DNA of 64,000 nucleotides from sequence record LC494302.1; one strand, given 5' to 3'. Below, piece by piece: positions 1 to 20,252 of this stretch (positions within the stretch are counted from its first letter, which is position 1; each line of letters opens with the position of its first letter). This stretch comes from Escherichia phage SP27. A program made the translations under genes and the position numbers. The notes under the pieces are model-generated. The model was not told the origin of the DNA and did not search any database. It was given only the letters and a program-made list of their open reading frames with translations.

Positions 1-321
1 GAAGTGAATTCTCTTAATGCTGGTAATACAGTAGATAAGTTCTTTATTGCTCAAGGGTACAGGAAAGATATTCATCAATATTGTTCAGTATATGGGGAGT
101 ACAATAGTACTGAAGATATAATTTATTGGTCAACACATCAAGATTATCTAACTAAAATTGGCGTTCCAGATGTTAGTACTTTATCTGAAGAAGAATACTT
201 TCAGTACAGCTTAGTACATGATTTACATATACCTTTAGGGTTAATCAAGGGTATGCAGGAAGAGGTTCATAAGCTTAAATCCATGAGTAAAGGTACTTTC
301 ATTAGAACAGTGCAATACTAG
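1..321 (+). CDS. FQxS-motif paralog family member, 5' end probably outside window
   Basis: ORF in frame from window edge, no in-frame ATG near 5' end; motif LSEEEYFQYSLVHD. Confidence 0.6.
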   Translation, partial: EVNSLNAGNTVDKFFIAQGYRKDIHQYCSVYGEYNSTEDIIYWSTHQDYLTKIGVPDVSTLSEEEYFQYSLVHDLHIPLGLIKGMQEEVHKLKSMSKGTFIRTVQY

Positions 322-322
322 C

Positions 323-351
323 TTGACAGTACTTTTCTTTAGTGCTATAGT
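323..351 (+). promoter_or_regulatory. sigma70-like promoter
   Basis: TTGACA (323-328), 17-nt spacer, TATAGT (346-351); upstream of ORF starting 381. Confidence 0.5.
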
Positions 352-380
352 ACCTGTACGTTAATCATAGGGTAGAAATT

Positions 381-626
381 ATGTTAAATTTTTTAAATTT
401 TCTTATCGTCTTGTGTATTGTTCTTGGGATTGCACCATTTGTATTGTATTTCATGGATTCAGATGAAATGCAGAAGATGAATTGCACAAGGACAGGACAG
501 AGTAGAGTAGAGACGATTCTTATGCCTGTTACGGTTATTGTTAACAACATGCCCATTACGAACATGGTCCCTACCCTAACGACAACGTACCAGTACTCTT
601 GTACAGACGGAGAGAGGTGGAGATGA
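381..626 (+). CDS. small hydrophobic protein (N-terminal TM segment)
   Basis: ORF directly downstream of promoter; N-terminus LNFLNFLIVLCIVLGIAPFVLYF is hydrophobic. Confidence 0.45.
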   Translation: MLNFLNFLIVLCIVLGIAPFVLYFMDSDEMQKMNCTRTGQSRVETILMPVTVIVNNMPITNMVPTLTTTYQYSCTDGERWR

Positions 627-943
627 AATTTAATATAGCAAAAACATCGAGTATATGTATTTTTGGTTATGCAGAAGAGTTAGGTGATATTGACATTCTT
701 TTGTACAAAAAGGATGGTGTTATGCATTTCAAGTACCAGGATGAAGAGGCAGACAATTATCTTTTACCTAATTTAGTACAAATGCAGGAAGAGGAATTAT
801 TCCAGTACAGCTTAATATACGACATTGTTATTTGCACGATGCCAGTACTAATTAGTATTCAAAAAGTGATGCTCGATATGTATGATAAGCTAATACAAGG
901 TACATCAGGGAGAATCATTGAAATCGATATACAAGACAATTAA
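623..943 (+). CDS. FQxS-motif paralog family member
   Basis: ATG 623 overlaps upstream stop (ATGA); RBS GGAGAGAGGTGGAG; motif EEELFQYSLIYD. Confidence 0.65.
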   Translation: MKFNIAKTSSICIFGYAEELGDIDILLYKKDGVMHFKYQDEEADNYLLPNLVQMQEEELFQYSLIYDIVICTMPVLISIQKVMLDMYDKLIQGTSGRIIEIDIQDN

Positions 944-1136
944 TCAAGAATGGAAGACCCAAAAGTACAGGGAATTCAACAGGAATTTTACAAAAGATGC
1001 ATTGAATTTAAAAACAACAGAGTTTGATATGTTTATTTTTCTTGGAACACGTTCACAAGAACAATTTGTTCATTATTATATAAATTCGTTGCGAACGGAG
1101 ATAGTATGCAAAACACAGGGTATTATAAAAAGGTAA
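918..1136 (+). CDS. small protein, family B (FLGT..QEQ motif)
   Basis: ORF; motif FIFLGTRSQEQFVHYYINSL shared with 1106, 13552 and 13748 genes. Confidence 0.55.
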   Translation: MKSIYKTINQEWKTQKYREFNRNFTKDALNLKTTEFDMFIFLGTRSQEQFVHYYINSLRTEIVCKTQGIIKR

Positions 1137-1372
1137 ACCAATATTTGTACGCTACAAAGTACAGGGATTTTTGTTTAAAGGGTGGTGATGAAGATTTTTC
1201 TTTGCGATTATCAGAATTTAATCTGTTATTTTATCTTGGTACAAAAGAACAAGAAGAAATGGCACAGAAATTTATCAAGCACCTTTTACAAAAAATTAAT
1301 ATGCAAATTTTGATGCTTAAGTTACAGAATGAGATAAATGAATATGAATCCAGAAATAGTTCAGGATCTTAA
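1106..1372 (+). CDS. small protein, family B
   Basis: ORF; motif LFYLGTKEQEEMAQKFIKHL; tandem to previous paralog. Confidence 0.55.
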   Translation: MQNTGYYKKVNQYLYATKYRDFCLKGGDEDFSLRLSEFNLLFYLGTKEQEEMAQKFIKHLLQKINMQILMLKLQNEINEYESRNSSGS

Positions 1373-1730
1373 AAAAGTAATATTTCTTTTGAATACCAGA
1401 AGTGAATTGTATACAGAGTTAAAAGAGATTAATGCATTTTATCAGAATTTTGTAATCCAAGAGATCAGTGATTTAATTACAGATGCATTATTTGAATTCT
1501 CGGAGAAATACAAAGGTTCAGAGTTCAGTGTTAAGAATGTTATTCGTCCAAGTGCAAGGAAAATTATATTATCACATTTTACATTTGACAATAAAGATTT
1601 ATTCAGTCATAATCCAAGTACAGCTTTATATTTTATTCCTGATTCAGACAAAAATCATCCTATTCATTACGGATGGATTTTGTCATATATAGTACAAGGA
1701 AAGGAGTATCCTATTAAATGGAAAGATTAG
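1338..1730 (+). CDS. hypothetical protein
   Basis: 130-aa ORF, same polarity, overlapping upstream gene end. Confidence 0.55.
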   Translation: MNMNPEIVQDLKKVIFLLNTRSELYTELKEINAFYQNFVIQEISDLITDALFEFSEKYKGSEFSVKNVIRPSARKIILSHFTFDNKDLFSHNPSTALYFIPDSDKNHPIHYGWILSYIVQGKEYPIKWKD

Positions 1731-1878
1731 GGCGATTAGATTATTACACAATTAATACAAATTATTTGTTGCGTAATATAAAATCCGATTACAAAATATG
1801 GATAAAGAACAGAGATAGCATGTGTTATGAATTTTATTTAGATTATGCTATCAAACGATTTTTAAGAGAAGAACATTA

Positions 1879-2082
1879 ATGCAAAAGATTAATACGATAA
1901 CATTAAATGCATTACAGGATTCATTATTAGATAGTATTAAGATGTATTACAATATACATTTGAAGGGTGGTATTGATAATTACGATTATTATTTGAGTTT
2001 AATTACATTTGAGCACCTTTCAGTACAGGACAGGATTTTACATCCTACAAATCCTAGGTATCCATCGATAGGTAAATTATGA
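1879..2082 (+). CDS. hypothetical small protein
   Basis: 67-aa ORF whose stop overlaps next start (ATGA). Confidence 0.45.
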   Translation: MQKINTITLNALQDSLLDSIKMYYNIHLKGGIDNYDYYLSLITFEHLSVQDRILHPTNPRYPSIGKL

Positions 2083-2627
2083 ATGAGATAAAGTTATTAG
2101 CACACAAGATAAGTACAATAATGCTTATCCTCAATAACAACCATCCTATATCGCATATAGATGGAATCCTGAGTCAGAGGACAGGTGGTAGTTTATATTT
2201 GTCCATAAACGCGGATATCGCAAGGAAATACATTGATATTGATGTTGAAATCGAATATGATACAACGGGGATTGTTGATGTAGGTGCATTAATCAGTTCA
2301 AATCCAGTATCAGCATCCCCATTGACCAAAGATGTTAGTACAGGATTCGAAGGATATTTGTGGTACAATACCAATGATGATTATTTTATATATCAGCATT
2401 CCAATACAAATTATGATGAAGACAAATTTCAGTTCATAGACCCTTATGATGAAGCTGAAGTATTTCAAAAATCATTAATCACAAAACCGCATGAGATGAT
2501 GTATCTAATGTTATTCAGTACAATGCATTTGAATCCATTAATTAAAGGTTTAAAATTTTATATTCAATTAAATTTAGTCCATGTAGTTTATGATTTATTA
2601 ATGCAAGGATATAGTTATGAAGTATAA
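2079..2627 (+). CDS. divergent FQxS-family member
   Basis: ORF; degenerate motif DEAEVFQKSLI. Confidence 0.6.
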   Translation: MNEIKLLAHKISTIMLILNNNHPISHIDGILSQRTGGSLYLSINADIARKYIDIDVEIEYDTTGIVDVGALISSNPVSASPLTKDVSTGFEGYLWYNTNDDYFIYQHSNTNYDEDKFQFIDPYDEAEVFQKSLITKPHEMMYLMLFSTMHLNPLIKGLKFYIQLNLVHVVYDLLMQGYSYEV

Positions 2628-2928
2628 AATGATGTATACCCCAGATATGATTTATGTTGAATTAGAAGATGATGACGATGGGTGGAATTTGATTTATTCA
2701 AGAAGTTCAGGTTGGTACATGGCACATTTAAATGATTCGATAGTTACAGATTATTTTGTAGATTTCAATACATTATCCGATGAAGAATTGTTCCAACAGC
2801 AATTAGTGATTGACACGGGTGGTTATGATGTCTTATTATTAAAAAAGATACAGAAAGCTGTTATTGATTTTAAGCCCATGATATGGCAAAGGAAATATTA
2901 TGACCTCGAAGTACCATACCAGCAATGA
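2617..2928 (+). CDS. FQxS-motif paralog family member
   Basis: ORF; motif LSDEELFQQQLVID. Confidence 0.65.
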   Translation: MKYKMMYTPDMIYVELEDDDDGWNLIYSRSSGWYMAHLNDSIVTDYFVDFNTLSDEELFQQQLVIDTGGYDVLLLKKIQKAVIDFKPMIWQRKYYDLEVPYQQ

Positions 2929-3466
2929 AATTCAGTACACCTACGCTAATGCAATCCTTATGGGACAAAAGTTAGCTTGTATTGTTGCAGCCTTATATAA
3001 TGCCCAGAAATATCACAAGCGTCATTTCCACAAATGTATTGGTATTATTCCATCGAAGTACAATACATATATTGCGTGCACGAGTCATTTTGATAAACGA
3101 TTCAATACACCAGATATACCAAATGCCCGTAGTGTTATTGGTCTTTTGGATTTCGCACCTGGTGCTGTTATTGGAAAGAATGATTTAGAGTACGCATGGT
3201 ATAATAAAAATGCCCCGTTAGTAATGGTAACATATGATAAAGAAACGAACAACGCAATAGAGTACAATACATATAAATCAGAGGAAGAATTTTTTCAAGG
3301 TTCAATGCTTGTACCAGTGCGTTTGTTATTTTATAATGTCATAATGAGTACAGTACACAATAGTCCATTACACAAGAATCACAAAATTAATTTCAATTTT
3401 TGTGCTTATGCGATTGATGGTGTGTATGAGTGTTTAATGGAGGTATTGAGTTATGAAGCTGAATAA
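2900..3466 (+). CDS. FQxS-motif paralog family member
   Basis: ORF; motif SEEEFFQGSMLV. Confidence 0.65.
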   Translation: MTSKYHTSNEIQYTYANAILMGQKLACIVAALYNAQKYHKRHFHKCIGIIPSKYNTYIACTSHFDKRFNTPDIPNARSVIGLLDFAPGAVIGKNDLEYAWYNKNAPLVMVTYDKETNNAIEYNTYKSEEEFFQGSMLVPVRLLFYNVIMSTVHNSPLHKNHKINFNFCAYAIDGVYECLMEVLSYEAE

Positions 3467-3794
3467 TACATTTGATATTAATAAGTTAAGAGAATGGTTT
3501 TATAGTATTGAAATTGAAGCCATCCCGTATCATAGATATGAACAATATAATTTAACCAGTATTGATATCAGTGAGTTGTACGCGTATTATCAAAGTGCAT
3601 TAGAGATGCATAAGTTATTTTTGAGTACAGATTTTGTTCTAAATTACAATTTTGAGGAATTTAAAAATTATAATTTAGTACAGAAATATGTAGTAGCAAA
3701 GTACATGTACCTTCAAGGAATTACAAGTATAGTGGAATTCAATACAGTCCTTGCTTTAGTTGAGGTAATTTTATGCAGTACATGTATGATTTAG
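3453..3794 (+). CDS. hypothetical protein
   Basis: 113-aa ORF in gene array, overlapping neighbours. Confidence 0.55.
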   Translation: MKLNNTFDINKLREWFYSIEIEAIPYHRYEQYNLTSIDISELYAYYQSALEMHKLFLSTDFVLNYNFEEFKNYNLVQKYVVAKYMYLQGITSIVEFNTVLALVEVILCSTCMI

Positions 3795-4279
3795 AGTTCA
3801 GCTTAGATGCTGCATTTAAATATGTTCACAAGATAGAAACAATATACAGTACATTATGTGCAATAAAATCAGTAACAGAAGAGCTTGATGTTGGTGAAAA
3901 ATATCAGGTATGGAATAATACATTTTTAAATAAAGAACGTTGCTCTACGGGGTTTAATATTTTAACATTTAATCCCAGCAATTGTTACCCAGAGAAGCAT
4001 GAACGTTATCCGAATGACGACATGTGGTTTGAGTACAAAGAAGATTGTGATATGTCGTTCATTGAAGTTCCTGATGATTTTAATGCACAAGATTTAACAG
4101 ACGAGTGGTGGTTCCAGCAGAATTTAGTCCACGATGATATTGATTTATTTTTTTATGTAGTATTTAAAATGCTTTATCACAACAATATAGTACAAGATAG
4201 TGTATTTTTTTCATGTCTATATATTGATGATTTGTACAATGAAATTCAAATCAACATGCCCAGAACGCCTGTATCGTAA
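3773..4279 (+). CDS. FQxS-motif paralog family member
   Basis: ORF; motif TDEWWFQQNLVHDDID. Confidence 0.65.
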   Translation: MQYMYDLEFSLDAAFKYVHKIETIYSTLCAIKSVTEELDVGEKYQVWNNTFLNKERCSTGFNILTFNPSNCYPEKHERYPNDDMWFEYKEDCDMSFIEVPDDFNAQDLTDEWWFQQNLVHDDIDLFFYVVFKMLYHNNIVQDSVFFSCLYIDDLYNEIQINMPRTPVS

Positions 4280-4304
4280 GATATGGGCTTTTTTCGTTTT
4301 GGTA

Positions 4305-4333
4305 TTGACATAGAAGACCAAAGCTGTTATCAT
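4305..4333 (+). promoter_or_regulatory. sigma70-like promoter with extended -10
   Basis: TTGACA (4305-4310), 17-nt spacer, TGt-TATCAT (4325-4333). Confidence 0.45.
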
Positions 4334-4361
4334 GTGTATTCATTTTAAAGGAGAATATATA

Positions 4362-4874
4362 GTGAGTTTCATAATCCCAAGTACATACGAAGATGCATCA
4401 AGTGCAGTTCATAAGATTCATTATATTTTTAATTTAATTATTAGATCTGCAAAAATTAAAATGTATGCACCTCTTGTGACAAATAATCGAAATGAAGAAA
4501 TTTTTATTAGCACAGACAAAATTATTTTTCCATATTTCAATGAAGATAGATTGTGGTTCATACATTTAGCTGCATTACAAAAATATAAGATGTCAATTCG
4601 TAATAATTTGGTTATACCGTTATATCATCCCGATATTGGAGAGGATGAGTATTTTCAGTACAGCACAGTACACCGCCATGAAGATATCTTTGCTGCTATG
4701 CTTATTGCTAAATTGAACACCGTTGATTTGGAGCAGTACAAATACAATAATAAATCATGTAAGATCATAATCCCTGCATTCATAGCTCTTTATGATTATG
4801 TGGTGCATAACAAAAAAGATGATACATATGCTTTCAATGAAGAGTATTTGGATTTTTTTAAGGATAACATATGA
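4362..4874 (+). CDS. FQxS-motif paralog family member
   Basis: ORF; likely GTG start 4362 after RBS AAAGGAG (ATG 4332 lies inside the -10 element); motif GEDEYFQYSTVH. Confidence 0.6.
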   Translation: MSFIIPSTYEDASSAVHKIHYIFNLIIRSAKIKMYAPLVTNNRNEEIFISTDKIIFPYFNEDRLWFIHLAALQKYKMSIRNNLVIPLYHPDIGEDEYFQYSTVHRHEDIFAAMLIAKLNTVDLEQYKYNNKSCKIIIPAFIALYDYVVHNKKDDTYAFNEEYLDFFKDNI

Positions 4875-5410
4875 GCAGTACAACAGTATCAAAAGTACAG
4901 AAAGCAATGTCATTCAATGAAATTGGTACATTTAAAGATAAGATCATTGATTGCCTTGAATACATGATTTGTAGTAATATCGAAAGTATCGAGATATTTA
5001 ACAAGACAAATCGCTCTTACCATATGATGTACATTGCAAACAATAATGGTATCATTCCATTTATTTCGGATAGTACAATATGGTACGCATGTGATACGAA
5101 AAAAACCACAATAGGTTTACATTTATTTGAGACACATTATGATCTAATTATTCCTGAGCATTGTATGCAAGAAGAAGAATATTTTCAAATGCAATGTATA
5201 CATTCACCATTAGTGTTGTTTAGTTTATATATTATACCTTATATCACCAAATGTGTTCATGAGAATAAAGCTCCGTGGAATCATGAATTTGTATCGTTGA
5301 AGTTATTGTATAATGTATTAGTAGAATATTATGATTACAGGCACAATGGTACAATCAGTGATGTATGGGATTTTGAATCGCTAAGGGTGAAAACATACAC
5401 AGGTGAATGA
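4871..5410 (+). CDS. FQxS-motif paralog family member
   Basis: ORF; motif MQEEEYFQMQCIH. Confidence 0.65.
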   Translation: MSSTTVSKVQKAMSFNEIGTFKDKIIDCLEYMICSNIESIEIFNKTNRSYHMMYIANNNGIIPFISDSTIWYACDTKKTTIGLHLFETHYDLIIPEHCMQEEEYFQMQCIHSPLVLFSLYIIPYITKCVHENKAPWNHEFVSLKLLYNVLVEYYDYRHNGTISDVWDFESLRVKTYTGE

Positions 5411-5411
5411 T

Positions 5412-6026
5412 ATGACCAGAATTAAAATGTATGATTTGATGCAGTACAGTAAAATTGCCATTCCAGTGCTTAATAAAGTGCTGGATGCATTCATTGCCAA
5501 ATACCCTGAGAATTCAGTGTTATGTATTCCATTTAGTGTTCCAGATAAAGATGATATATTCCAAGTGAATGTCAGTACACGTGGTATTACATTACAGCAG
5601 AAATACATGGATACGGAATATTATGGAATAAAGTTGGATTCAGTACAGGGTTCAAAATCAGCCTATGATTTTTTTGTTCCTAATAATATAGAGTCATGGG
5701 AAACAAACATTTCAAAGAAAGATGAAAATGATGTTCCTATTAGTGGTGTGTTCAACAATAAAGTTTTTTATTATTACGAAACCGACAAATTCCCTGAAGA
5801 GTTATATTACAATTCAGAAATGAATGAAGATGTAGATGCATTCATGTTTCAATTATCTTTAGTACATGATATCATTGATGTTAAAGAGTTAAGAGCAGAA
5901 ATCAATTTAGCTAAAGAGTTATCGGACATGCTGCCACCGTTTAGTATGCTTTTTTGTGAAGGTGGTTATTTTTCAAAAGAAGTGTTTGAACATTTCGTAG
6001 ATGTTGTAAAAGGGTTGGATATATAG
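5412..6026 (+). CDS. FQxS-motif paralog family member
   Basis: ATG 5412 after RBS AGGTGA; motif DAFMFQLSLVHD. Confidence 0.65.
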   Translation: MTRIKMYDLMQYSKIAIPVLNKVLDAFIAKYPENSVLCIPFSVPDKDDIFQVNVSTRGITLQQKYMDTEYYGIKLDSVQGSKSAYDFFVPNNIESWETNISKKDENDVPISGVFNNKVFYYYETDKFPEELYYNSEMNEDVDAFMFQLSLVHDIIDVKELRAEINLAKELSDMLPPFSMLFCEGGYFSKEVFEHFVDVVKGLDI

Positions 6027-9167: not shown

Positions 9168-9523
9168 CATATGATTATTCTATGTACTATTATAAGTTAC
9201 CTAAAGGATGGGACTTGTGCTGTAATCTTATTAAGGGCGACTCGGAACATGAGTTGAGTTTATATATGCATTACAAAGATTCTTGTTTTAAATTTATTCA
9301 TGTATCACATGACGACTATGACTATGAATCTGAGAGTCTTATAGATTATACAGTACTGGACGATGGCGAACTATTTCAGGCTGCATTAGTGTTTGATAAG
9401 AATAAGTACTCCTGTACATTTGAAGAAATGGTTTCTTTGCAAAATGAAATGAAGAGATTTGAAAAAGAAAACGTATTTAATCCATCCCCATCAAGAACGA
9501 ATAATTATTATTTCAATATATGA
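9164..9523 (+). CDS. FQxS-family member, tandem trio copy 3
   Basis: ATGA overlap; motif DYTVLDDGELFQAALVFDKNKYSCT. Confidence 0.7.
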   Translation: MTYDYSMYYYKLPKGWDLCCNLIKGDSEHELSLYMHYKDSCFKFIHVSHDDYDYESESLIDYTVLDDGELFQAALVFDKNKYSCTFEEMVSLQNEMKRFEKENVFNPSPSRTNNYYFNI

Positions 9524-9532
9524 GATTATAAA

Positions 9533-10024
9533 ATGACATTACAGAGTTCATTGGAAAAAGCAAAGAAGATTCATGAGTACATGAATATGGCAAAAGAAGG
9601 TTCAGTTTACGGTGTTTTCAAAGACACAAGTACTCAATATTATGTACCGGATAACCTCCTTTATAATGACTGCTCAGATACAGAAACGTGCGTACTGGAT
9701 ACAGAAACGTGTGTACTGGATACCGACCCTAATGATTATGAATGCTACATTAATATGCATAATGAGTACATGGTCTATATTAATGATACAGATACCATCA
9801 ACAGTACTGACAGCGATTCCAATGACATTATAATTCCGAGTGAAGTACTGGAAGGTCCGTGGGATAGTGAAGAGTATTACTTCCAACAAAGTACTGTATA
9901 TGATAATGAAGTACTTGATGTTATTATAATTATGTGGTACTTTAAAAGTATTGGTTCTGGGAACTTCTATTTCGATTACAAATACGTAAAGAAAACTGTA
10001 GATAACGGTATTAACAGGGGTTGA
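9533..10024 (+). CDS. FQxS-family member, quintet copy 1 (MSLQSAL N-terminus, WYFK C-terminus)
   Basis: motifs VLEGPWDSEEYYFQQSTVYDNEVLDVIIIMWYFKSIGS; contains in-frame 21-bp tandem repeat. Confidence 0.7.
   Translation: MTLQSSLEKAKKIHEYMNMAKEGSVYGVFKDTSTQYYVPDNLLYNDCSDTETCVLDTETCVLDTDPNDYECYINMHNEYMVYINDTDTINSTDSDSNDIIIPSEVLEGPWDSEEYYFQQSTVYDNEVLDVIIIMWYFKSIGSGNFYFDYKYVKKTVDNGINRG
9677..9718 (+). repeat. 21-bp tandem repeat (2 units, 1 mismatch) inside CDS
   Basis: GATACAGAAACGTGCGTACTG / GATACAGAAACGTGTGTACTG, encoding DTETCVL twice. Confidence 0.85.
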
Positions 10025-10025
10025 A

Positions 10026-10496
10026 ATGAGTTTAGAAAGAGCATTAGAGATTGCGAAGTTAATTGATTTATGCAGCAAAGAAATTGTAGCAAATTGTCTT
10101 AATGGATATCTATTCAAGGAAGGTAAATCTTATTGTCGAATGAGATACGATGACAGTAGTGAGTACATTCACATGTATGAAGAAAACTTAGATTCTTCTG
10201 AAACAACACTCAATGGGTGTGATGTTAATTTGGAAGATAATTACATGTACTTCTGTCGTGATGCTGATATTTTAATACAAGATTCTGACATTATATCTGG
10301 TGCAGCAGAGAAACATCTTCCGTATTCAGTACTGGATAATGACTGGGGAAGTGAAGAGTTCTACTTCCAGCAGAATACTATCTACGAGGAATATGTGCTT
10401 GACAAGCTTGTCATTCTGTGGTACTTTAATAATACCGATTGTCCTAGCTTCTATCTGGACTTGGATCTACTACGAGTTATTAAAGAGGATATATGA
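10026..10496 (+). CDS. FQxS-family member, quintet copy 2
   Basis: motif DNDWGSEEFYFQQNTIYEEYVLDKLVILWYF. Confidence 0.7.
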   Translation: MSLERALEIAKLIDLCSKEIVANCLNGYLFKEGKSYCRMRYDDSSEYIHMYEENLDSSETTLNGCDVNLEDNYMYFCRDADILIQDSDIISGAAEKHLPYSVLDNDWGSEEFYFQQNTIYEEYVLDKLVILWYFNNTDCPSFYLDLDLLRVIKEDI

Positions 10497-10936
10497 GTTT
10501 AGCAAGTGCACTTAAACTGGCACACAAAATACATCACTTCCACGATAACATAAAAAGTGGTTTCTATGGTGATAAAGTAAGTGCATTTGGTAATGAGTAT
10601 TATCTATCAGGTATAAAGACATACTCTGATGATATTTTACTTATGGGCCATGATAAAGACAATACTATACAGTACTCTTCATGTAGTCAATATACTAGTT
10701 TTTTTGTATATATTCCAGGTACTAAGATTACGTTTGACACATCAAATACACCTGTTGACTTCGGGGTACTTGATGGCCCGTGGGGTACTGAAGAGTATTA
10801 CTTCCAACAGAGTCTTATTTTTAACCAAGAAATGCTTGATTCCTTGGTTGTTTTGTGGTACTTTAAGGAATTGAAGTTTGAACCATTTTTTCTTGACTGG
10901 GGAGCATGTGAATATTTAAGTACAGGGGATTTGTAA
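10493..10936 (+). CDS. FQxS-family member, quintet copy 3
   Basis: motif DGPWGTEEYYFQQSLIFNQEMLDSLVVLWYFK. Confidence 0.7.
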   Translation: MSLASALKLAHKIHHFHDNIKSGFYGDKVSAFGNEYYLSGIKTYSDDILLMGHDKDNTIQYSSCSQYTSFFVYIPGTKITFDTSNTPVDFGVLDGPWGTEEYYFQQSLIFNQEMLDSLVVLWYFKELKFEPFFLDWGACEYLSTGDL

Positions 10937-11427
10937 TGTCGTTACAAAGTGCATTGAAAGAAGCAAAGAAGATTCATGAGTACATGATTATGGTACAGGA
11001 AGGTTCAGTACCTGGGGTGTATAAAACATCTGATACTGAATTTTTTGTAAAAGACCGTGACGATTATGACGAGTCCGAGATATGTGCAGAAACATTAGTA
11101 CTGCACACTGATACTGGTGACAGTGATAACTGTGAATATCATATGTACAATCAGTACATTAGTTATTGCCGTAATGAAGATATTACCATCTACAACACAG
11201 ATAGTGATGCTGATGACACTATCATTCCTTATTCAGTACTGGAAGGACCGTGGGATAGTGAAGAATATTACTTCCAGAATAGTACGTTGTACAATGAAGA
11301 AGAACTGGATGTTATTGTGATTATGTGGTACTTTAAAAGTATTGGTTCTGATAGTTTCTATTTCGATTATGAATACGTAGAGAATACTGTAGGGGAAGAT
11401 AATGTCATTACAAAGTGCACTGGATAA
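10936..11427 (+). CDS. FQxS-family member, quintet copy 4
   Basis: motif EGPWDSEEYYFQNSTLYNEEELDVIVIMWYFKSIGS. Confidence 0.7.
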   Translation: MSLQSALKEAKKIHEYMIMVQEGSVPGVYKTSDTEFFVKDRDDYDESEICAETLVLHTDTGDSDNCEYHMYNQYISYCRNEDITIYNTDSDADDTIIPYSVLEGPWDSEEYYFQNSTLYNEEELDVIVIMWYFKSIGSDSFYFDYEYVENTVGEDNVITKCTG

Positions 11428-11845
11428 AGCAAAAGAACTACAGGTATATATTGAAGATATCAAGGCTGGGAAGTTCGAAGAAGTATACAAAGCCGAGAAT
11501 GGTAACTACTACAAGGATAGTGATTTTACCACAACTACAGTTATTCTTGGGCTGAATTCCAAAAGTCCCGCAGATTTTTCACAATACAATCCAGATGCAG
11601 AATTTATCAGTTATGCTTATGGTGGTGAAATCCGTTTTTATAATCGCAGCAGACCTTTAAAATTGAACTTTGAAGTACTGAAAGGTCCGTGGGATAGTGA
11701 AGAGTATTACTTTCAGAATAGTACTTTGTATGATGATGAAGTACTAGATACTTTAGTTATTATGTGGTACTTTAAAAGTATTGATAGTACAAGATTTTAT
11801 TTGGATTATGAATATGTACGTGAAGCATATAAGGGCAAACGATGA
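11402..11845 (+). CDS. FQxS-family member, quintet copy 5
   Basis: motif KGPWDSEEYYFQNSTLYDDEVLDTLVIMWYFKSIDS. Confidence 0.7.
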   Translation: MSLQSALDKAKELQVYIEDIKAGKFEEVYKAENGNYYKDSDFTTTTVILGLNSKSPADFSQYNPDAEFISYAYGGEIRFYNRSRPLKLNFEVLKGPWDSEEYYFQNSTLYDDEVLDTLVIMWYFKSIDSTRFYLDYEYVREAYKGKR

Positions 11846-12156
11846 AATTCTTATACAGTATTCAGTACATTCCTGGTACAATTAGTTTAATGTATTTCTT
11901 CGATCATGATAATTTCCAGCACCTTGCCGTTAGAAGATGTAATGAATCTTTAATGATTGAATATCTTCACGATTGTGATTATATTCCTGACTTCCTTGAA
12001 TGTGATTACAGAGATGATCATGAAACATTTCTTTTTCAGGAATCACTTGTATGGGATAAGAGAATTAATTTTTATGCTTTACTTGAGATACAAAAACAAG
12101 TGAAGTACTACTGGGATTACTTAATTACCCAAGAATATATAGAGATTGAAATATAA
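11842..12156 (+). CDS. FQxS-motif paralog family member
   Basis: motif DHETFLFQESLVWDKR. Confidence 0.65.
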   Translation: MKFLYSIQYIPGTISLMYFFDHDNFQHLAVRRCNESLMIEYLHDCDYIPDFLECDYRDDHETFLFQESLVWDKRINFYALLEIQKQVKYYWDYLITQEYIEIEI

Positions 12157-12629
12157 TGTACGAAAGTGATCTTAAGCACGCTGAGGAATTAGTTAATATA
12201 GTAAAGTTCTTTCAAAATAATGTAAAGTACTTAGACGACAAAGGGGCATATATTAGTACTATAAGTGTTGGTACAGATATTCTAGGATTAGGTAATGAAT
12301 ATAAGTACGAGTCCCATGATTATGATTTGGAATTCAAGTACTTCGAATGGAATCCTGGAACTTTCTATTCAATCGATGAAAGTGGGAAATATTTTGAATT
12401 CACCGAAGAAGACGTACTATTCTTAAATTCAGAAGATGCTTACTTCCAGTACAGTACTATATACCCAAATAGTGCATTAAGAGCTTTAGTAGTTTTTAAT
12501 GCATTTCTGAAAGAGAACTTTAATAATTCTATATTCATTGATTTAAATTATGTATATGAACTAAATCAGGTGATATATATGGAGTCCAGAAAAAATGAGT
12601 TACGAAAGTGCAATCAAGAAAGCAAATGA
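12156..12629 (+). CDS. FQxS-motif paralog family member
   Basis: motif NSEDAYFQYSTIYPN. Confidence 0.65.
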   Translation: MYESDLKHAEELVNIVKFFQNNVKYLDDKGAYISTISVGTDILGLGNEYKYESHDYDLEFKYFEWNPGTFYSIDESGKYFEFTEEDVLFLNSEDAYFQYSTIYPNSALRALVVFNAFLKENFNNSIFIDLNYVYELNQVIYMESRKNELRKCNQESK

Positions 12630-13041
12630 TATTCTAAAAGTTGTTAAGTTCTTCAAAGAAAATCCTGAATACGTAGATGATGAACGAAGAGAAGTTTCTA
12701 ATGGCACGAAGATTACAATTGATTCTTTATTTGACACTAGCAACAACAACTGTAGTACTATTGAATTAGCATACGATTATATTTCATTGAACAGAAAATA
12801 TGATGAAGTTACGATAGAGCGTCATGAGAATGAAGAATCTTTTAAAATTTCTGATATTTTATCTCTGAGTACAGAAGAAGGGTACTTCCAGGGAAGTACT
12901 GTTTATAATGAAGGAACACTAGACAATCTATGTACATTTAGTGTACTATATCAGAAGTCAGTACTGGATATATTTTATCTAGACACTGAAAAACTTGATA
13001 GGTTAGTTGATTTCGTTACTATAGAAGAGGCATCCGTTTGA
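12595..13041 (+). CDS. FQxS-motif paralog family member
   Basis: motif STEEGYFQGSTVYNEGTLD. Confidence 0.65.
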   Translation: MSYESAIKKANDILKVVKFFKENPEYVDDERREVSNGTKITIDSLFDTSNNNCSTIELAYDYISLNRKYDEVTIERHENEESFKISDILSLSTEEGYFQGSTVYNEGTLDNLCTFSVLYQKSVLDIFYLDTEKLDRLVDFVTIEEASV

Positions 13042-13574
13042 GAAAAATTAACATTAATGATTATGATGCATTACAAGATTTATCAAAAAAGATTCGCACT
13101 ATCGTACCAGTACTGAAGAAATGCAGTACTGGATTAATCGATCCTAGTACTGTTGTTAATGAGAAGTACAATTTTCATTATGTATTACAGGGTACTGGGG
13201 CATTCCAGAAGTGTGAGGTGCGTGAGAAACACGTAATTGATACATCATTGTTTTCTATTGGTGCACCTATGTCGAATAATACTATTTTCCTGGATGACGC
13301 AGGAAATATTCAACAATTAACATTTAAGAAAAGGAAAAAGAACAATAACATTGGTGTGTACGCGATGAAGTGGGGTCAACCTGATTTGAAGCGTGAAATT
13401 CACATCCCTAAGTACAATTACAATTCATTTGAAGAACAGTGCTTTCAACTATCGTGTACTGACCCTGACTATGCTATCATTCAGTTCTATATGGAATTGC
13501 AGATAGCATTTAACAGTAATTTGTATATTAACTTATTGGCGATTAACATTGATGAAGTATTCAAAAACATTTAA
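13038..13574 (+). CDS. divergent FQxS-family member
   Basis: motif SFEEQCFQLSCTDPD. Confidence 0.6.
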   Translation: MRKININDYDALQDLSKKIRTIVPVLKKCSTGLIDPSTVVNEKYNFHYVLQGTGAFQKCEVREKHVIDTSLFSIGAPMSNNTIFLDDAGNIQQLTFKKRKKNNNIGVYAMKWGQPDLKREIHIPKYNYNSFEEQCFQLSCTDPDYAIIQFYMELQIAFNSNLYINLLAINIDEVFKNI

Positions 13575-13770
13575 TCGAATTGAATACATGAGAACTGTGA
13601 GTGCAGTGTGGGACATATGGTTCACTACTAAACCAAAAATGGATTACCATGACTTTAAGCTCTTGTTCTTCGTTGGCTCTAACAAACAGGATGTTGCAAT
13701 GAAGGGTTATATTCAGCACTTACAGGAACTAATCCAGAAGAGAATATATGAAAATAATAGACCAAAATGA
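13552..13770 (+). CDS. small protein, family B
   Basis: motif LLFFVGSNKQDVAMKGYIQHL; start 13552 or 13588 uncertain. Confidence 0.5.
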   Translation: MKYSKTFNRIEYMRTVSAVWDIWFTTKPKMDYHDFKLLFFVGSNKQDVAMKGYIQHLQELIQKRIYENNRPK

Positions 13771-13939
13771 CATTGCTAAACTATTCAATATATATTCTAC
13801 TAGAATGATGCAAACAGACTCATATAGTACTGAATTCAAAGAGTTGAAAGTACTGATGTACTTAGGAACCCAATACCAAGAACAAGTTATTTTAGAATAT
13901 ATTAATTCGTTGAAGAAGGATATCCGTTATGTACGATGA
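13748..13939 (+). CDS. small protein, family B
   Basis: motif VLMYLGTQYQEQVILEYINSL. Confidence 0.5.
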   Translation: MKIIDQNDIAKLFNIYSTRMMQTDSYSTEFKELKVLMYLGTQYQEQVILEYINSLKKDIRYVR

Positions 13940-14489
13940 TTTAGATCTTGCGTTTGAACGTATGGTAATTTTAATGCAATGCAATGAAATGCATGAAACA
14001 ATCCGTCGCACCAAAGGGATTGAATATACAAGTAAACTATTCTCATACGAAAGTCGTCGAGGGATGGATCATTTTTACTGCACTGATTGTTCAAAGTTTT
14101 CAGTACTGAAATATTATCATCCTACTGTTTCCAATAATAGTTTAATATCCACATATGACGGTGATCTGTTTAGTGTAATGTATGACACATTACATCCATC
14201 AATTTCAATCTATAAAGATTGCGATAGTAGTTTATCGTATATAATTGAAGATTACTTATCTCCTAATACTGAAGAGAATATTTTTCAGAACAGTGTGTTG
14301 CATGATGAATTAAGTATAAAATGCATCTATATGTTCAATAAGTTAAAAGAGTACGCCGATAATAATTACTTCATTGATGATTTAGCGGTATTGTCTGTTT
14401 CCGTTTTTAATACAAATGATATTGATATGAAATACTATAATGAGATTTGTAAAGTACATAATATGTATAAGGAACTATTATGCCAATAA
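13929..14489 (+). CDS. FQxS-motif paralog family member
   Basis: motif NTEENIFQNSVLHDE. Confidence 0.65.
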   Translation: MYDDLDLAFERMVILMQCNEMHETIRRTKGIEYTSKLFSYESRRGMDHFYCTDCSKFSVLKYYHPTVSNNSLISTYDGDLFSVMYDTLHPSISIYKDCDSSLSYIIEDYLSPNTEENIFQNSVLHDELSIKCIYMFNKLKEYADNNYFIDDLAVLSVSVFNTNDIDMKYYNEICKVHNMYKELLCQ

Positions 14490-15082
14490 ATGCAAATAAA
14501 TGTTGTAGTGCAGATGTGCATTTGTTTTTTAAGAAATTAGTAAATGATATTATCTATATGCAAGAAATCATTTATCACAAAAGAATGGACTTAGAAAAAG
14601 CATTAGTTCAGTTCTCTTTTATGCTGGATGGGATTATTACTCTAGATGGTGATGGATTGCGTATAGCATTTGACGGTAATTCAAATAGGGTTTTCTATTG
14701 GATGAATAATAAATTATGTTCCTCAATTTGCCGCACTTTTTATAACCCTATTTCGGACTTATATCAATTGGTGTATTCTAAAGGTGCAGTAGAAGCATCA
14801 TATGGTGATAGTTATGCCCTAGGAAAGAGTATTCCATATATGCAATCATTTGATATTGAATTAGTCAGTACTGATGAAGATGCAATGTTCACAAATGATT
14901 TAACGATGGAACGTGAATCTGCAATGAGATATATTACAAATTCTATGCATACATTCTTTCAACGAGTAGAATTTGATAATGTATATATAGCAAATGTAAA
15001 TATTTTTACTGACCTGTGTCAGTACTTGAGAAGTGTTTGTGATTTTGATGAAAGCTATTGTAAGCTTTATACTGAGGTATAA
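14480..15082 (+). CDS. hypothetical protein (possible degenerate FQxS member)
   Basis: 200-aa ORF; only a weak DEDAMFTNDL match. Confidence 0.55.
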   Translation: MPINANKCCSADVHLFFKKLVNDIIYMQEIIYHKRMDLEKALVQFSFMLDGIITLDGDGLRIAFDGNSNRVFYWMNNKLCSSICRTFYNPISDLYQLVYSKGAVEASYGDSYALGKSIPYMQSFDIELVSTDEDAMFTNDLTMERESAMRYITNSMHTFFQRVEFDNVYIANVNIFTDLCQYLRSVCDFDESYCKLYTEV

Positions 15083-15087
15083 AACAA

Positions 15088-15450
15088 ATGAACACATTAA
15101 GTATTACATACTATACAACTAAAAAATTAGTTACTTGTTTAATATCATTGAAGACAAACCATGATGATATGTTTGATATGGCTGCATATGAATTAGAATT
15201 ATCAGAAGATGGCTTCAAGAGCTATGAAGTATATAGCTATGTTCGTGAAGATGTAATTGACACTACACTAATGCAAGAGGATGAGTTATTCCAAGAAAGT
15301 TTAGTATGGGATAATAAGTACGATTGTAACTTTGATTTCTTATGTTTAATCCAGAAAGAAATGAAAAGAATCTTTGATAATTATCCAGTGAAGAGATTGA
15401 GTACTGGACCGGAGCAGTACAGGAGAATTTTATTCCGTTATGAAGACTGA
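15088..15450 (+). CDS. FQxS-motif paralog family member
   Basis: motif MQEDELFQESLVWDNKYDC. Confidence 0.65.
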   Translation: MNTLSITYYTTKKLVTCLISLKTNHDDMFDMAAYELELSEDGFKSYEVYSYVREDVIDTTLMQEDELFQESLVWDNKYDCNFDFLCLIQKEMKRIFDNYPVKRLSTGPEQYRRILFRYED

Positions 15451-15775
15451 ATTAGTGAAAGTAATGTACGCTACTCATATTAAACTACTACTTGTGAAAT
15501 TTGATTATAATAAAAAACATAATGATTTCTATACTTTAATTCGTGATGAAAATACATTCTCCTTGCGATGCAACAATATACCGTTGAAGATAAATGATTT
15601 TACTTCACTTGACGAGGGTGAATTATTTCAAGAATCATTAGTTTTTAATAGTAATATAAAAATTGATATAGAAGTTATTAAAAAATACCAGATTTTATTG
15701 AACAAAATTATGAATTGTTATCCATGTGAAATAGGTGGTCATATGCAGTTCAAATCAAAAATGTATGAATTATGA
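15440..15775 (+). CDS. FQxS-motif paralog family member
   Basis: motif LDEGELFQESLVFNSN. Confidence 0.65.
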   Translation: MKTELVKVMYATHIKLLLVKFDYNKKHNDFYTLIRDENTFSLRCNNIPLKINDFTSLDEGELFQESLVFNSNIKIDIEVIKKYQILLNKIMNCYPCEIGGHMQFKSKMYEL

Positions 15776-15782
15776 GGTTTAT

Positions 15783-16319
15783 ATGTTAGATGAAAAAATG
15801 AACAATGGAACACAATATAATCATCTTAAGTTAGATACATTCGAATCAGCTATCAGTACTGCACAAGATATAATTGATATTATCAAGTTCATTAAAGAAA
15901 ATAAGTTCAAATGTTTGAAAATACTAAATCGTTCAATGTACCGTGATAACAATATTCATGTATCAGTACGTAGACCGAAAGATAAAGAAAGTGGGAGAGA
16001 TTTCTATAACAACAGTGAGCAGTTCGAATGTGAATATGATCCAGAATTCAGAGGCGGTTTCATGTGTTACAGTATAAAGGATACCTCACACATTGAGATA
16101 CGTTCATCGAAAGGTGGCATACGTACATTAGAGTTCATTGATATAGTTTTAAATCAGGAATACTACTTTCAACTATCATTATTGTTTCCTGCATACGATT
16201 TAGGAGTTCTATTCATGTATAAGTACTTTTATGAGCACTGGAATGAAGACTTCTATCTGGACTTAGAAGATTACCAATTAGTTTGGAAAGAAATGGTAGA
16301 ACTTCGCAATCCCTCTTGA
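15783..16319 (+). CDS. FQxS-motif paralog family member
   Basis: ATG 15783 after GAGG; motif NQEYYFQLSLLFPAYD. Confidence 0.65.
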   Translation: MLDEKMNNGTQYNHLKLDTFESAISTAQDIIDIIKFIKENKFKCLKILNRSMYRDNNIHVSVRRPKDKESGRDFYNNSEQFECEYDPEFRGGFMCYSIKDTSHIEIRSSKGGIRTLEFIDIVLNQEYYFQLSLLFPAYDLGVLFMYKYFYEHWNEDFYLDLEDYQLVWKEMVELRNPS

Positions 16320-16368
16320 CACCCACCGATTCTTTGTGATATAATCCCTTTATATTAATTGTAAAGGG
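16316..16368 (+). promoter_or_regulatory. sigma70-like promoter with extended -10 and leader hairpin
   Basis: TTGACA (16316-16321), 18-nt spacer, TG-n-TATAAT (16337-16345); hairpin CCCTTTA...TAAAGGG (16346-16368). Confidence 0.6.
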
Positions 16369-16378
16369 TTATAACACA

Positions 16379-16855
16379 ATGTCCAAAGACCTATCATTTA
16401 GCAATGCACAAAAAATAGCAAAAGACATTATCAGGGTTTATAAATTCCTTGCGAATGTTACTGAAGATTTTTCCGTGGGGGAACATAAAGTTATTAAACG
16501 AAATGGATACCTTTCATTTATGGATGGGTTACTCTATAGTTCAGATGAATCAACTTGTAGCATTAGAGTACTTGATGAAGTACCAAGTGGTGATTTTATT
16601 TCATACCATTTTCCAAGTTCAGATAATTTCAAATACTACAATCATCTTCTTATAAATGAAGCATTTAATACGATTGTAATTAACACTGAAGAAGAGTTCT
16701 TCCAGTACAGTACTGTGTATCCAGAGAGGATTGTTTTCAGTTCAGTGATTTTAACAGCCCTTAAAAATGAACTAAATTCCGATAGTGATCATTTCTACTT
16801 GGACCTGAACAATGTCGATTGTATTATTGAGTACCTGGAGAAAAATGGTTTATGA
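16379..16855 (+). CDS. FQxS-motif paralog family member
   Basis: motif NTEEEFFQYSTVYPE. Confidence 0.65.
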   Translation: MSKDLSFSNAQKIAKDIIRVYKFLANVTEDFSVGEHKVIKRNGYLSFMDGLLYSSDESTCSIRVLDEVPSGDFISYHFPSSDNFKYYNHLLINEAFNTIVINTEEEFFQYSTVYPERIVFSSVILTALKNELNSDSDHFYLDLNNVDCIIEYLEKNGL

Positions 16856-17337
16856 TTACTACAGAATATGATTACTATGGTGTTTTAGAATTTACAGAAA
16901 ATATCTATCGCATTGCAAAGGAGTTCAGAAGTCCTAAGCCTTTTGGTGGAATGCCTTTTGGTGGTATGTTTCAATACGATGAGTTCAGTTCATCTAAAGG
17001 AAGACTAGCATTTACTAATGGTAGAGGTAATCAAATCTACGCGGAGTACTTTGATGATAATGACTTTCATTACAAAGCCGAATACATTTCATATTGCCCT
17101 GGGTCTGATTTGAAGATTAATATTGATACATTTAGAGAAGCAGTATTTGTTCCGTATAATGATTTAGTCTTCATGTCAGAGGAAATGTACTTTCAGGGTT
17201 CTTGTATTCATGATGTAAAAGTACTTAATGCTATGTTATTTTATGGTGCACTACTTAATCATTACAAATACAATCAACGATTCTTTTTAGATTTAGCAGT
17301 CTACTATAAATGCGTGGATTATTTGAATGCAAAATAA
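16852..17337 (+). CDS. FQxS-motif paralog family member
   Basis: motif MSEEMYFQGSCIHD. Confidence 0.65.
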   Translation: MITTEYDYYGVLEFTENIYRIAKEFRSPKPFGGMPFGGMFQYDEFSSSKGRLAFTNGRGNQIYAEYFDDNDFHYKAEYISYCPGSDLKINIDTFREAVFVPYNDLVFMSEEMYFQGSCIHDVKVLNAMLFYGALLNHYKYNQRFFLDLAVYYKCVDYLNAK

Positions 17338-17689
17338 GAAAACAATTCAGTACATGACGGATGGCAATGAATGCTTTGCTTCAAGATATGAATTCAACAA
17401 GAACCATTTCGTAACCTATATCCCTGAATATAATCAGTTTTATCTACAGATTTACCAAAATGATTCATATATGAATGAGATATATTCTGAAATAAAAATC
17501 CCGGATTATAGTACTTTATCAGAAGAGGAATTGTTTCAGCAGAGCACTATCAGTACTGAAGATGTGTATGAAATAATGGAATACCAGAAGGTACTTAAAT
17601 ATTTCCATGAAGTTCAGGATATACAAATGGATAGTGTTAAAGCGTGGAATTATAACACATACGAGGTAAATTATGTTCGAAATGATTAA
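17327..17689 (+). CDS. FQxS-motif paralog family member
   Basis: motif IPDYSTLSEEELFQQSTIS. Confidence 0.65.
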   Translation: MQNKKTIQYMTDGNECFASRYEFNKNHFVTYIPEYNQFYLQIYQNDSYMNEIYSEIKIPDYSTLSEEELFQQSTISTEDVYEIMEYQKVLKYFHEVQDIQMDSVKAWNYNTYEVNYVRND

Positions 17690-20165: not shown

Positions 20166-20186
20166 AGACCCTTATGGGTCTTTTTG
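20166..20186 (+). terminator. intrinsic terminator
   Basis: stem AGACCC/GGGTCT, loop TTAT, then TTTTT. Confidence 0.7.
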
Positions 20187-20196
20187 TGTTTATGTC

Positions 20197-20225
20197 TTTA
20201 CAGTAGCATTCAGATGTGTTATAAT
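20197..20225 (+). promoter_or_regulatory. sigma70-like promoter with extended -10
   Basis: TTTACA (20197-20202), 17-nt spacer, TG-n-TATAAT (20217-20225); RBS AGGAGAAG before ATG 20253. Confidence 0.5.
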
Positions 20226-20252
20226 CACTTTTAATAGAGGATAGGAGAAGAT

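What the first reader, a model, noticed from the sequence alone, without database searches (positions are those of the whole stretch)
918..1372. Second small-protein family (FLGT..QEQ motif) occurring as tandem pairs inside the main array
The gene pairs at 918-1372 and 13552-13939 (70-90 aa each) share a C-terminal motif (FIFLGTRSQEQFVHYYINSL, LFYLGTKEQEEMAQKFIKHL, LLFFVGSNKQDVAMKGYIQHL, VLMYLGTQYQEQVILEYINSL). The same pair is inserted twice about 12.6 kb apart, suggesting a duplicated two-gene cassette or a small accessory module travelling with the large family.
Basis: seen in the sequence. Interest (0 to 1): 0.45.

Follow-up and report, generated by a model that had tools for sequence, protein, structure and literature searches.

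The report
Stray copies of a phage mini-protein family
The four small genes are truly related, but they are stray members of a roughly 30-copy family of tiny helical proteins of unknown function that Asteriusvirus jumbo coliphages carry as a long tandem array just upstream of this window, and they are not a two-gene cassette inserted twice.

Summary
ORFs 918-1136, 1106-1372, 13552-13770 and 13748-13939 (+ strand) are homologous. A profile built only from paralogs outside the window finds exactly these four (E 6.5e-12 to 6.7e-5; next best 0.71).

The window is an Asteriusvirus jumbo coliphage (99% identical to phage G17). The four genes are outliers of a 31-33-copy family, PHROG 4148, of unknown function. 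Its core is 27-29 head-to-tail genes that start about 100 bp inside the 20.7-kb right terminal repeat and end 1.3 kb upstream of pair 1.

The "same cassette twice" reading fails. There is no DNA or protein similarity in the flanks. Pair 1 is a local tandem duplicate, and the pair 2 genes are not each other's or pair 1's closest relatives.

AlphaFold predicts a roughly 70-aa three-helix bundle (pLDDT 74-85). LGTxxQE is the turn and N-cap of helix 3. No Pfam, PDB or fold match is informative.

The genes are under purifying selection (dN/dS about 0.24). No gene from this region is among the virion proteins detected in phAPEC6. Copy number varies between phages, and the genes lie downstream of sigma70-like promoters.

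My best guess, inferred and not shown, is that they are early-expressed diversified small binding proteins for host takeover or counter-defence. The finding is ordinary, and the family remains uncharacterised.

The parts
918..1136 (+). S-family gene (72 aa, TTG start; Shine-Dalgarno GGGAG at 908-912). It overlaps the end of the upstream gene and the start of 1106. It is not annotated in G17 but is annotated in 121Q and Turkey3.
1106..1372 (+). S-family gene (88 aa, ATG, GGAG at 1097-1100). It is the tandem sister of 918-1136.
13552..13770 (+). S-family gene (72 aa from ATG 13552; TTG 13549 also in frame). It is the most divergent member (VGSNKQD in place of LGTxxQE).
13748..13939 (+). S-family gene (63 aa). 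It is the most canonical of the four (MKII..., LGTQYQE, YINSL).
323..351 (+). Sigma70-like promoter match (TTGACA-17-TATAGT with TG, 11/12) in the intergenic gap 322-380. It is the candidate promoter of the transcription unit containing pair 1.
   Evidence: consensus match only
4267..4288 (+). Intrinsic-terminator-like hairpin plus T-run, also annotated as a terminator in G17. It is the candidate end of the unit containing pair 1.
4305..4333 (+). Sigma70-like promoter match (TTGACA-17-TATCAT with TG, 11/12) just after the terminator. It is the candidate promoter of the long unit that contains pair 2.
   Evidence: consensus match only

Best explanation
SHOWN: The four ORFs are dispersed members of a lineage-specific multigene family, called S here (= PHROG 4148), of about 65-90-aa soluble proteins. 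The family is found in Asteriusvirus jumbo coliphages and a few uncultivated relatives. A complete genome carries 31-33 copies. Of these, 27-29 form one uninterrupted, mostly overlapping head-to-tail array that begins about 100 bp inside the inner edge of the 20.7-kb right direct terminal repeat. The remaining four lie 1.3 kb (pair 1) and about 14 kb (pair 2) further downstream, embedded in the unrelated L (EExFQxS) array.

The family grows and shrinks by local tandem duplication, deletion and allelic replacement. Pair 1 is such a local duplicate and is present in 2, 1 or 0 copies in different phages.

The proteins are predicted three-helix bundles. The conserved N-terminal MKxL strand and the LGTxxQE turn and helix-3 N-cap pack together at one end, the hydrophobic core is conserved, and the helix surfaces and net charge vary widely.

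INFERRED (about 0.35-0.4): the genes are transcribed early by host sigma70 RNA polymerase as parts of long polycistronic units. They act in the cytoplasm as a diversified set of small binding or inhibitor proteins, each recognising a different host (or competing-phage) target, for host takeover or counter-defence.
For: Identity of the window: 99.0% to G17 and Sharanji.

Family: leave-out HMM, PHROG 4148, and a 33-sequence alignment with T, Q and L near-invariant.

Array and census: 28-29 contiguous copies in G17. A whole-genome scan of OR844650.1 finds 31 copies, only in the array, pair 1 and pair 2, with the next best E 0.46-0.6. 24 of 28 junctions in the array overlap. The terminal-repeat boundary follows from G17_00001 = G17_00614 and equals the 20,668-bp repeat reported for Sharanji (PMC11895373).

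Tandem growth: the nearest paralog is the adjacent gene in 12/29 cases and lies within two genes in 19/29. 918 and 1106 are mutual best hits.

Turnover: pair 1 has 2 copies in the window, 121Q, PBECO4, Turkey3 and A4, 1 in fEgEco12 and 0 in SD-15_S21. Gene 918 is 44% identical to its PBECO4 allele with dS about 1, while the flanks have dS 0.07-0.15.

Functional constraint: pooled dN/dS is 0.24 for 25 S orthologs, against 0.27 for L genes and 0.16 for other genes.

Fold: AF2 pLDDT 74.3 and 84.6, three helices, and a beta-bridge between K2 and T41.

Variable surfaces: net charge ranges from -8.5 to +8.8, and the conserved columns are mostly core hydrophobics.

Not virion-associated: the phAPEC6 virion MS table lists no gp between gp347 and gp549, and an S member is gp481c.

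Early expression: sigma70-like promoters lie in the few intergenic gaps. In the related PA5oct, terminal-repeat genes are transcribed early by host RNAP (PMC7318152).

Restricted distribution: only 54 clusters in 1.84 billion representatives. Cultured hits are only Escherichia and Salmonella Asteriusvirus phages.
Against: No experiment and no homology ties any member to a target, to toxicity or to a defence system.

Promoter-like matches are no more frequent than in shuffled sequence, and no transcriptome exists for this genus, so early timing rests on position and analogy.

The most conserved residues may be purely structural (helix capping), which neither supports nor contradicts a binding role.

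Most S orthologs are 98-100% identical between phages, so arms-race-like divergence is confined to hot spots. Dispensability of pair 1 in some phages also fits weak or redundant function.
Confidence: 0.4

Rival explanations
1. Near-neutral 'filler' duplicates. The array is a by-product of tandem duplication that pads a genome fitted to an enlarged capsid (the ratchet idea of Hua et al. 2017), with little or no individual function.
For: [quoted passage not shown] Copy number varies: 27 against 29 in the array, and 0-2 at pair 1. No function is detectable.
Against: Paralogs are only 18-39% identical, so they are old, yet all remain intact ORFs. Pooled dN/dS is 0.24. The core, turn motif and length are conserved across lineages that share no DNA similarity. 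Tight translationally coupled packing is maintained.
Confidence: 0.2
2. Small nucleic-acid-binding regulators (helix-turn-helix-like) or other phage-internal accessory factors for transcription or replication, rather than host-directed binders.
For: The helix 2 - Gly-containing turn - helix 3 geometry is reminiscent of an HTH. About half the paralogs are basic (pI > 9 in 13 of 33). Other jumbo phages show expansions of small DNA-binding domains, for example about 35 Zn-ribbons in phage G (PMC7824862).
Confidence: 0.12
3. S proteins are partners (chaperones, antidotes or adaptors) of the neighbouring L-family proteins, so that S and L form one functional module.
For: S and L arrays are adjacent and interleaved at the junction in Asteriusvirus and in three divergent metagenomic contigs. 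Both families show similar dN/dS (0.24 and 0.27) and local hot spots of replacement.
Against: There is no 1:1 pairing. The 27-29-gene core array contains no L gene, and about 30 L genes in the window have only 4 S genes among them. No S-L fusion or profile similarity exists. Pair 1 can be deleted while its L neighbours stay.
Confidence: 0.12
4. One reading: one two-gene cassette was duplicated or inserted twice, 12.6 kb apart.
For: There are two adjacent, overlapping gene pairs of the same family, on the same strand, with similar sizes.
Against: There is no DNA similarity beyond 41 nt or less and the flanking proteins are unrelated. The expected reciprocal-best-hit pattern is absent: 918 and 1106 are sisters, 13549 against 13748 gives no hit, and 918 against 13549 gives E 0.024. 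Pair 2 is stable in 32/34 genomes while pair 1 varies.
Confidence: 0.03

Closest known systems
PHROG 4148 (phage orthologous group, unknown function)
   Same: All four window proteins match its 74-position profile (E 1.2e-16, 7.2e-9, 8.2e-4, 1.6e-3), with the same length class.
   Different: The PHROG carries no function, structure or description of the array organisation. Nothing beyond membership can be transferred.
Tandem gene arrays noted in jumbo phages 121Q and G (Hua et al. 2017, PMC5646251) and the roughly 35-copy Zn-ribbon expansion of Bacillus phage G (Iyer et al. 2021, PMC7824862)
   Same: These are lineage-specific expansions of about 30 or more small paralogs in head-to-tail arrays in a jumbo phage genome. 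121Q is the same genus as the window.
   Different: The 121Q remark is one sentence without naming the family, so it could refer to the S or the L array. The phage G family is a Zn-ribbon, whereas S proteins have 0-3 cysteines and an all-helical prediction.
Host-takeover module of Bacillus phage SPO1 (from my own knowledge: 24 small early genes in the terminal redundancy)
   Same: Many very small genes next to or in a long terminal repeat, with host-type promoters. The products are presumed to redirect the host.
   Different: The SPO1 genes are not paralogs of one another and several have demonstrated targets. Here expression timing and targets are untested.
Terminal multigene families and 'genomic accordions' of poxviruses and ASFV (from my own knowledge)
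   Same: Tandem paralog families near genome termini, copy-number variation between close strains, and birth-and-death evolution.
   Different: Those are eukaryotic viruses with different folds and known immune-evasion roles. No amplification under selection has been shown for the S array.
Small three-helix-bundle binding scaffolds (e.g. staphylococcal protein A domains; from my own knowledge)
   Same: A predicted 60-70-aa three-helix bundle with a conserved core and variable helix surfaces.
   Different: This is an analogy of architecture only. No sequence or significant fold match was obtained.

Membership tests
PHROG 4148 / S family | Significant match to the family profile over most of the protein | tested here: met
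   phrog_4148 E 1.2e-16 (13748), 7.2e-9 (918), 1.6e-3 (1106), 8.2e-4 (13549). An independent HMM from seven out-of-window paralogs gives E 6.5e-12 to 6.7e-5.
PHROG 4148 / S family | Core motif [LM]xxLGT[ND]xQE ... YIxxLxxxIxxK in the second half of a 63-90-aa protein | tested here: met
   918, 1106 and 13748 carry LGTxxQE. 13549 has the variant VGSNKQD. All four keep the I..L...I pattern.
PHROG 4148 / S family | N-terminal MKxL[ST]xxEY motif | tested here: inconclusive
   It is present in degenerate form in 13748 (MKIIDQND). It is replaced by a YK.[IV]NQ...KYR[ED]F motif in 918 and 1106 and differs in 13549. The four window genes are therefore peripheral subfamilies.
Duplicated two-gene cassette | DNA similarity extending through both genes and flanks | tested here: not met
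   blastn with word size 7 finds only matches of 41 nt or less, E >= 0.001. The MAFFT alignment shows no conserved block.
Duplicated two-gene cassette | First genes and second genes of the two pairs are reciprocal closest relatives | tested here: not met
   918 and 1106 are mutual best hits. The best hits of 13549 and 13748 lie in the main array. 13549 against 13748 gives no hit.
Large EExFQxS (L) family of the same window | Profile-profile similarity to the L family | tested here: not met
   hhalign S against L gives probability 0.4%. No ORF is hit by both HMMs.
Helix-turn-helix DNA-binding proteins | Match to an HTH sequence profile or HTH fold | tested here: not met
Virion structural proteins | Detected in purified virions | tested here: not met
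   The literature table for phAPEC6 lists no protein between gp347 and gp549, and an S member is gp481c. Small proteins can escape MS, so this is supportive and not conclusive.
Known anti-defence or defence proteins | Homology to a catalogued system component | tested here: not met
   PADLOC gives only two sub-threshold chance hits for one protein. Anti-defence libraries as such were not available.
Early (host-RNAP-transcribed) genes | Transcribed in the first minutes from sigma70 promoters | not testable with these tools
   Only consensus matches in intergenic gaps are available, together with an analogy to PA5oct terminal-repeat genes.

The most novel reading that the evidence does not exclude
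The S array is a hard-wired repertoire of about 30 miniature three-helix 'binders'. Each would be tuned to neutralise a different host defence or host-takeover target. The repertoire would be kept as a library next to the terminal repeat and updated by cassette-like allelic replacement at hot spots such as gene 918. It would be a phage counterpart of the terminal immune-evasion multigene families of large eukaryotic DNA viruses.
Probability: 0.2. Interest if true: 0.7.

Novelty: new member of a known kind. Interest (0 to 1): 0.3.

Why it matters
As flagged, the finding is ordinary: two gene pairs that belong to a catalogued but uncharacterised phage protein family. The wider picture is modestly useful. 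About 5% of the genes of a 350-kb coliphage are copies of one tiny helical protein. They sit directly inside the terminal repeat, are under purifying selection, and show local hot spots of replacement and copy-number change. If the family proves to be a diversified host-takeover or counter-defence repertoire, it would offer about 30 small, easily expressed candidate inhibitors of E. coli functions. It would also offer a tractable model of how jumbo phages expand gene families. If the copies are dispensable filler, that would bear on the capsid-ratchet idea of genome growth.

Tried and rejected
(1) Same cassette twice: rejected by DNA alignment, blastn, flank protein comparison and best-hit topology.

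(2) S is a short version or domain of the L family: rejected (hhalign 0.4%).

(3) More members hidden in the window: none. The HMM's next best is E 0.13-0.71.

(4) Members elsewhere in the genome: none in G17 1-30,000 or in a complete 351,992-bp genome outside the three sites.

(5) Functional annotation by sequence: Pfam, NCBIfam, PADLOC and a PDB profile search gave only noise.

(7) Annotation of neighbours: all belong to PHROGs of unknown function, with no Pfam hit.

(8) Relatives in other cultured genera: tblastn with five members, including divergent ones, hits only Escherichia and Salmonella Asteriusvirus phages or nothing.

(10) RNA genes on either strand: no Rfam or tRNA hit in the window. 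Antisense ORFs at 13561-13719 and 13927-14094 are short and unsupported.

(11) Literature: the genome papers for this genus describe no function for these arrays.

Full report
**What the window is.** Bases 1-6000 are 99.0% identical to Escherichia phage vB_EcoM_G17 (MK327931.1, 337,313-343,312, minus strand) and to phage Sharanji. They are 94-99% identical to some twenty other Asteriusvirus jumbo phages of E. coli and Salmonella. The whole window is AT-rich (29-36% G+C) with uniformly positive GC skew. Almost all long ORFs are on the + strand.

**Checking the observation.**
- The four ORFs exist as described: 918-1136 (72 aa), 1106-1372 (88 aa), 13549/13552-13770 (73/72 aa) and 13748-13939 (63 aa). 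The quoted motif strings are exact.
- 918 starts with TTG, five bases after GGGAG. 1106 starts with ATG after GGAG. In 121Q the ortholog of 918 has an ATG start and is annotated.
- A four-way alignment gives 25-34% identity to the first sequence, with similarity beyond the motif, notably YK.[IV]NQ...KYR[ED]F shared by 918 and 1106.
- The decisive test was independent. An HMM built only from seven paralogs lying outside the window recovers exactly these four ORFs from all six-frame ORFs (E 6.5e-12, 5e-10, 8.8e-8, 6.7e-5), and the next hit is 0.71.
- All four match PHROG 4148.
- A motif regex, written post hoc, occurs four times in six frames against 0.005 in codon shuffles.

- In G17 the DNA immediately upstream of window position 1 holds a run of small genes with the same LGTxxQE motif.
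- Iterated HMM searches on G17 343,300-370,817 find 28 members in one contiguous block. A 29th, divergent copy with an insertion sits in the same block.
- 24 of the 28 gene junctions overlap.
- G17_00001 equals G17_00614. This puts the inner edge of the right direct terminal repeat at about 350,150, so the repeat is 20,668 bp, the same length PhageTerm gave for Sharanji.
- The first S gene starts about 100 bp inside that edge. A TTGACT-16-TAAAAT match lies in the gap.
- The last array gene ends 1.3 kb upstream of gene 918.
- A six-frame scan of a complete, unannotated genome (OR844650.1, 351,992 bp) finds 31 members: 27 in the array, pair 1 and pair 2, and none elsewhere (next best E 0.46-0.6).
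- G17 positions 1-30,000 also hold none.
- The four window genes are thus stragglers of a 31-33-copy family.

**Testing the cassette idea.**
- blastn (word size 7) between window 1-3500 and 11,500-16,000 gives only matches of 41 nt or less with E >= 0.001. One of them is the motif-coding stretch itself. The MAFFT alignment shows no conserved block.
- The upstream neighbours (623-940 and 13038-13571) and the downstream neighbours (1338-1727 and 13929-14486) are unrelated.
- 918 and 1106 are mutual best hits (E about 4e-10). In the core array the closest paralog is the adjacent gene in 12/29 cases and lies within two genes in 19/29 cases. This is the signature of local tandem duplication.
- 13549 and 13748 do not hit each other, and their best hits lie in the core array.
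- So pair 1 is a local duplicate, pair 2 is two unrelated family members side by side, and neither pair is a copy of the other.

**Relation to the large family.**
- An iterated profile for the 100-200-aa EExFQxS family (L) marks about 30 ORFs in window 1-22,000. No ORF is hit by both profiles, and hhalign of S against L gives 0.4% probability.
- The two families are nonetheless linked in genome architecture. In three metagenomic contigs, S arrays are followed by L arrays with S genes interleaved at the junction. These contigs carry S proteins only 29-38% identical to their closest G17 or window paralog, and one of them has no blastn match to any GenBank phage.

**Distribution.**
- An exhaustive HMMER scan of 1.84 billion cluster representatives finds only 54 clusters at E <= 1e-3. 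One, an 830-aa repetitive protein, is probably spurious.
- About 20 clusters are under 50% identical to any G17 paralog.
- tblastn of members and divergent representatives hits only Escherichia and Salmonella Asteriusvirus phages, including the divergent Turkey5/JNE01 lineage, or nothing.

**Evolutionary dynamics.**
- Pair 1 is polymorphic. Both genes are present in the window, 121Q, PBECO4, Turkey3 and A4. Only the second is present in fEgEco12, and neither in Salmonella phage SD-15_S21.
- Gene 918 is 44% identical to its PBECO4 allele with dS about 1, whereas the flanking genes have dS 0.07-0.15. This indicates replacement by an old divergent allele and not rapid drift. dN/dS is 0.3-0.45.
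- Pair 2 is collinear in 32 of 34 records.
- Between G17 or the window and OR844650.1, most S orthologs are 98-100% identical. The exceptions are a hot spot of 7-8 genes in the core array (including two missing genes) and pair 1.
- Pooled over 25 collinear orthologs, dN/dS is 0.24, against 0.27 for L genes and 0.16 for other genes. These are functional coding genes under somewhat relaxed purifying selection.

**The protein.**
- AlphaFold2 with family alignments predicts a three-helix bundle. For gene 918 the pLDDT is 74.3, with helices 2-23, 26-40 and 47-71. For gene 13748 with 56 sequences the pLDDT is 84.6, with helices 6-20, 29-37 and 44-62 and a beta-bridge between K2 and T41.
- LGTxxQE is therefore the helix 2 to helix 3 turn and the N-cap of helix 3, and it packs against the conserved N-terminal MKxL segment.
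- Column statistics show that conserved positions are mostly core hydrophobics plus G, T, Q and E of the turn and one Lys. Other positions are near maximal entropy.
- Net charge ranges from -8.5 to +8.8. The proteins are hydrophilic, and the four window proteins have 0-1 Cys.
- Neighbouring genes are equally unannotated.

**Expression context.**
- The few intergenic gaps carry good sigma70-type matches: window 323-351 and 4305-4333 (both 11/12 with an extended -10 TG) and a terminator hairpin at 4267-4288 that is also annotated in G17.
- This suggests that pair 1 lies in a unit of about 3.9 kb and pair 2 in the next, longer unit.
- Overall, promoter-like matches are no more frequent than in shuffles, so this is weak evidence.
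- The phAPEC6 virion proteome lists no product between gp347 and gp549, and an S member is gp481c. The family is therefore non-structural as far as tested.
- In the related jumbo phage PA5oct, which depends on host RNAP, terminal-repeat genes are the early class.

**Interpretation.**
- Shown: a real, lineage-restricted, roughly 30-copy family of tiny predicted helical-bundle proteins. It evolves by tandem birth and death with local allelic replacement. The window's two pairs are peripheral members.
- Inferred (about 0.35-0.4): early cytoplasmic binding or inhibitor proteins with diversified surfaces, used for host takeover or counter-defence.
- Rivals: near-neutral filler in the sense of Hua et al. 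at about 0.2; nucleic-acid-binding or phage-internal factors at about 0.12; partners of L proteins at about 0.12; the two-gene cassette at about 0.03.

**Novelty.** The sequences are in GenBank as hypothetical proteins, and the family is PHROG 4148. A single sentence in the literature notes an array of more than 30 genes in 121Q. It is a new (uncharacterised) member of a known kind of feature, namely lineage-specific tandem expansions in jumbo phages.

Noticed in passing
window 381-626 (+): This 81-aa ORF (phrog_8826) has a strongly hydrophobic N-terminus (MLNFLNFLIVLCIVLGIAPFVLYFM), so it is probably a small membrane protein. It is the first gene after the sigma70-like promoter at 323-351.
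   Followed up: partly
window 4258-4333 (+): This is the only sizeable intergenic gap in the first 16 kb. A terminator hairpin (4267-4288, also annotated in G17) is followed immediately by a TTGACA-17-TATCAT promoter match with TG (4305-4333), which marks an operon boundary inside the L array.
   Followed up: partly
window 11402-13038 (+): This is a hot spot of divergence in the L family. Products are 27-73% identical to those of phage ECO103 4-12-1, while neighbouring genes are 94-100% identical. The pattern of allelic replacement is the same as at gene 918.
   Followed up: partly
window 1-6000 versus 13000-14500: The window is a mosaic. It is 99.0% identical to G17 and Sharanji at 1-6000 but only 95.6% at 13000-14500, where BAU.Micro_ELP-22 and PBECO4 are the closest (97.7-97.9%).
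   Followed up: no
window 34566-35975 (+): A further small paralog set of four adjacent ORFs of 91-103 aa that hit one another by BLASTP. They are unrelated to the S and L families.
   Followed up: no
L003 (G17 MK327931.1) 20934-24937, minus strand: Just inside the left terminal repeat there is another run of about 17 back-to-back genes of 60-75 aa. The S-family HMM does not hit them (best E 0.57 in the region).
   Followed up: partly
L006 (ENA ERZ14189038 NODE_1, 101-kb contig), 9234-20243: This uncultivated phage contig has the same layout: spaced small genes, then an S array, then L genes. It has no blastn match to any GenBank phage, so it is a lineage outside the sequenced Asteriusvirus isolates. 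L008 and L009 (41-kb contigs, 29% G+C) are similar.
   Followed up: partly
L002 (G17) 4423-4671, minus strand: One member of the core array (G17_00603) carries a 6-7-residue insertion right after the GT of the motif (MTGTDKTAIARSIEQ). It forms its own subfamily with several database clusters (P0085, P0119).
   Followed up: no
window 1-64000, both strands: There is no tRNA gene and no Rfam family at gathering threshold anywhere in the window.
   Followed up: yes
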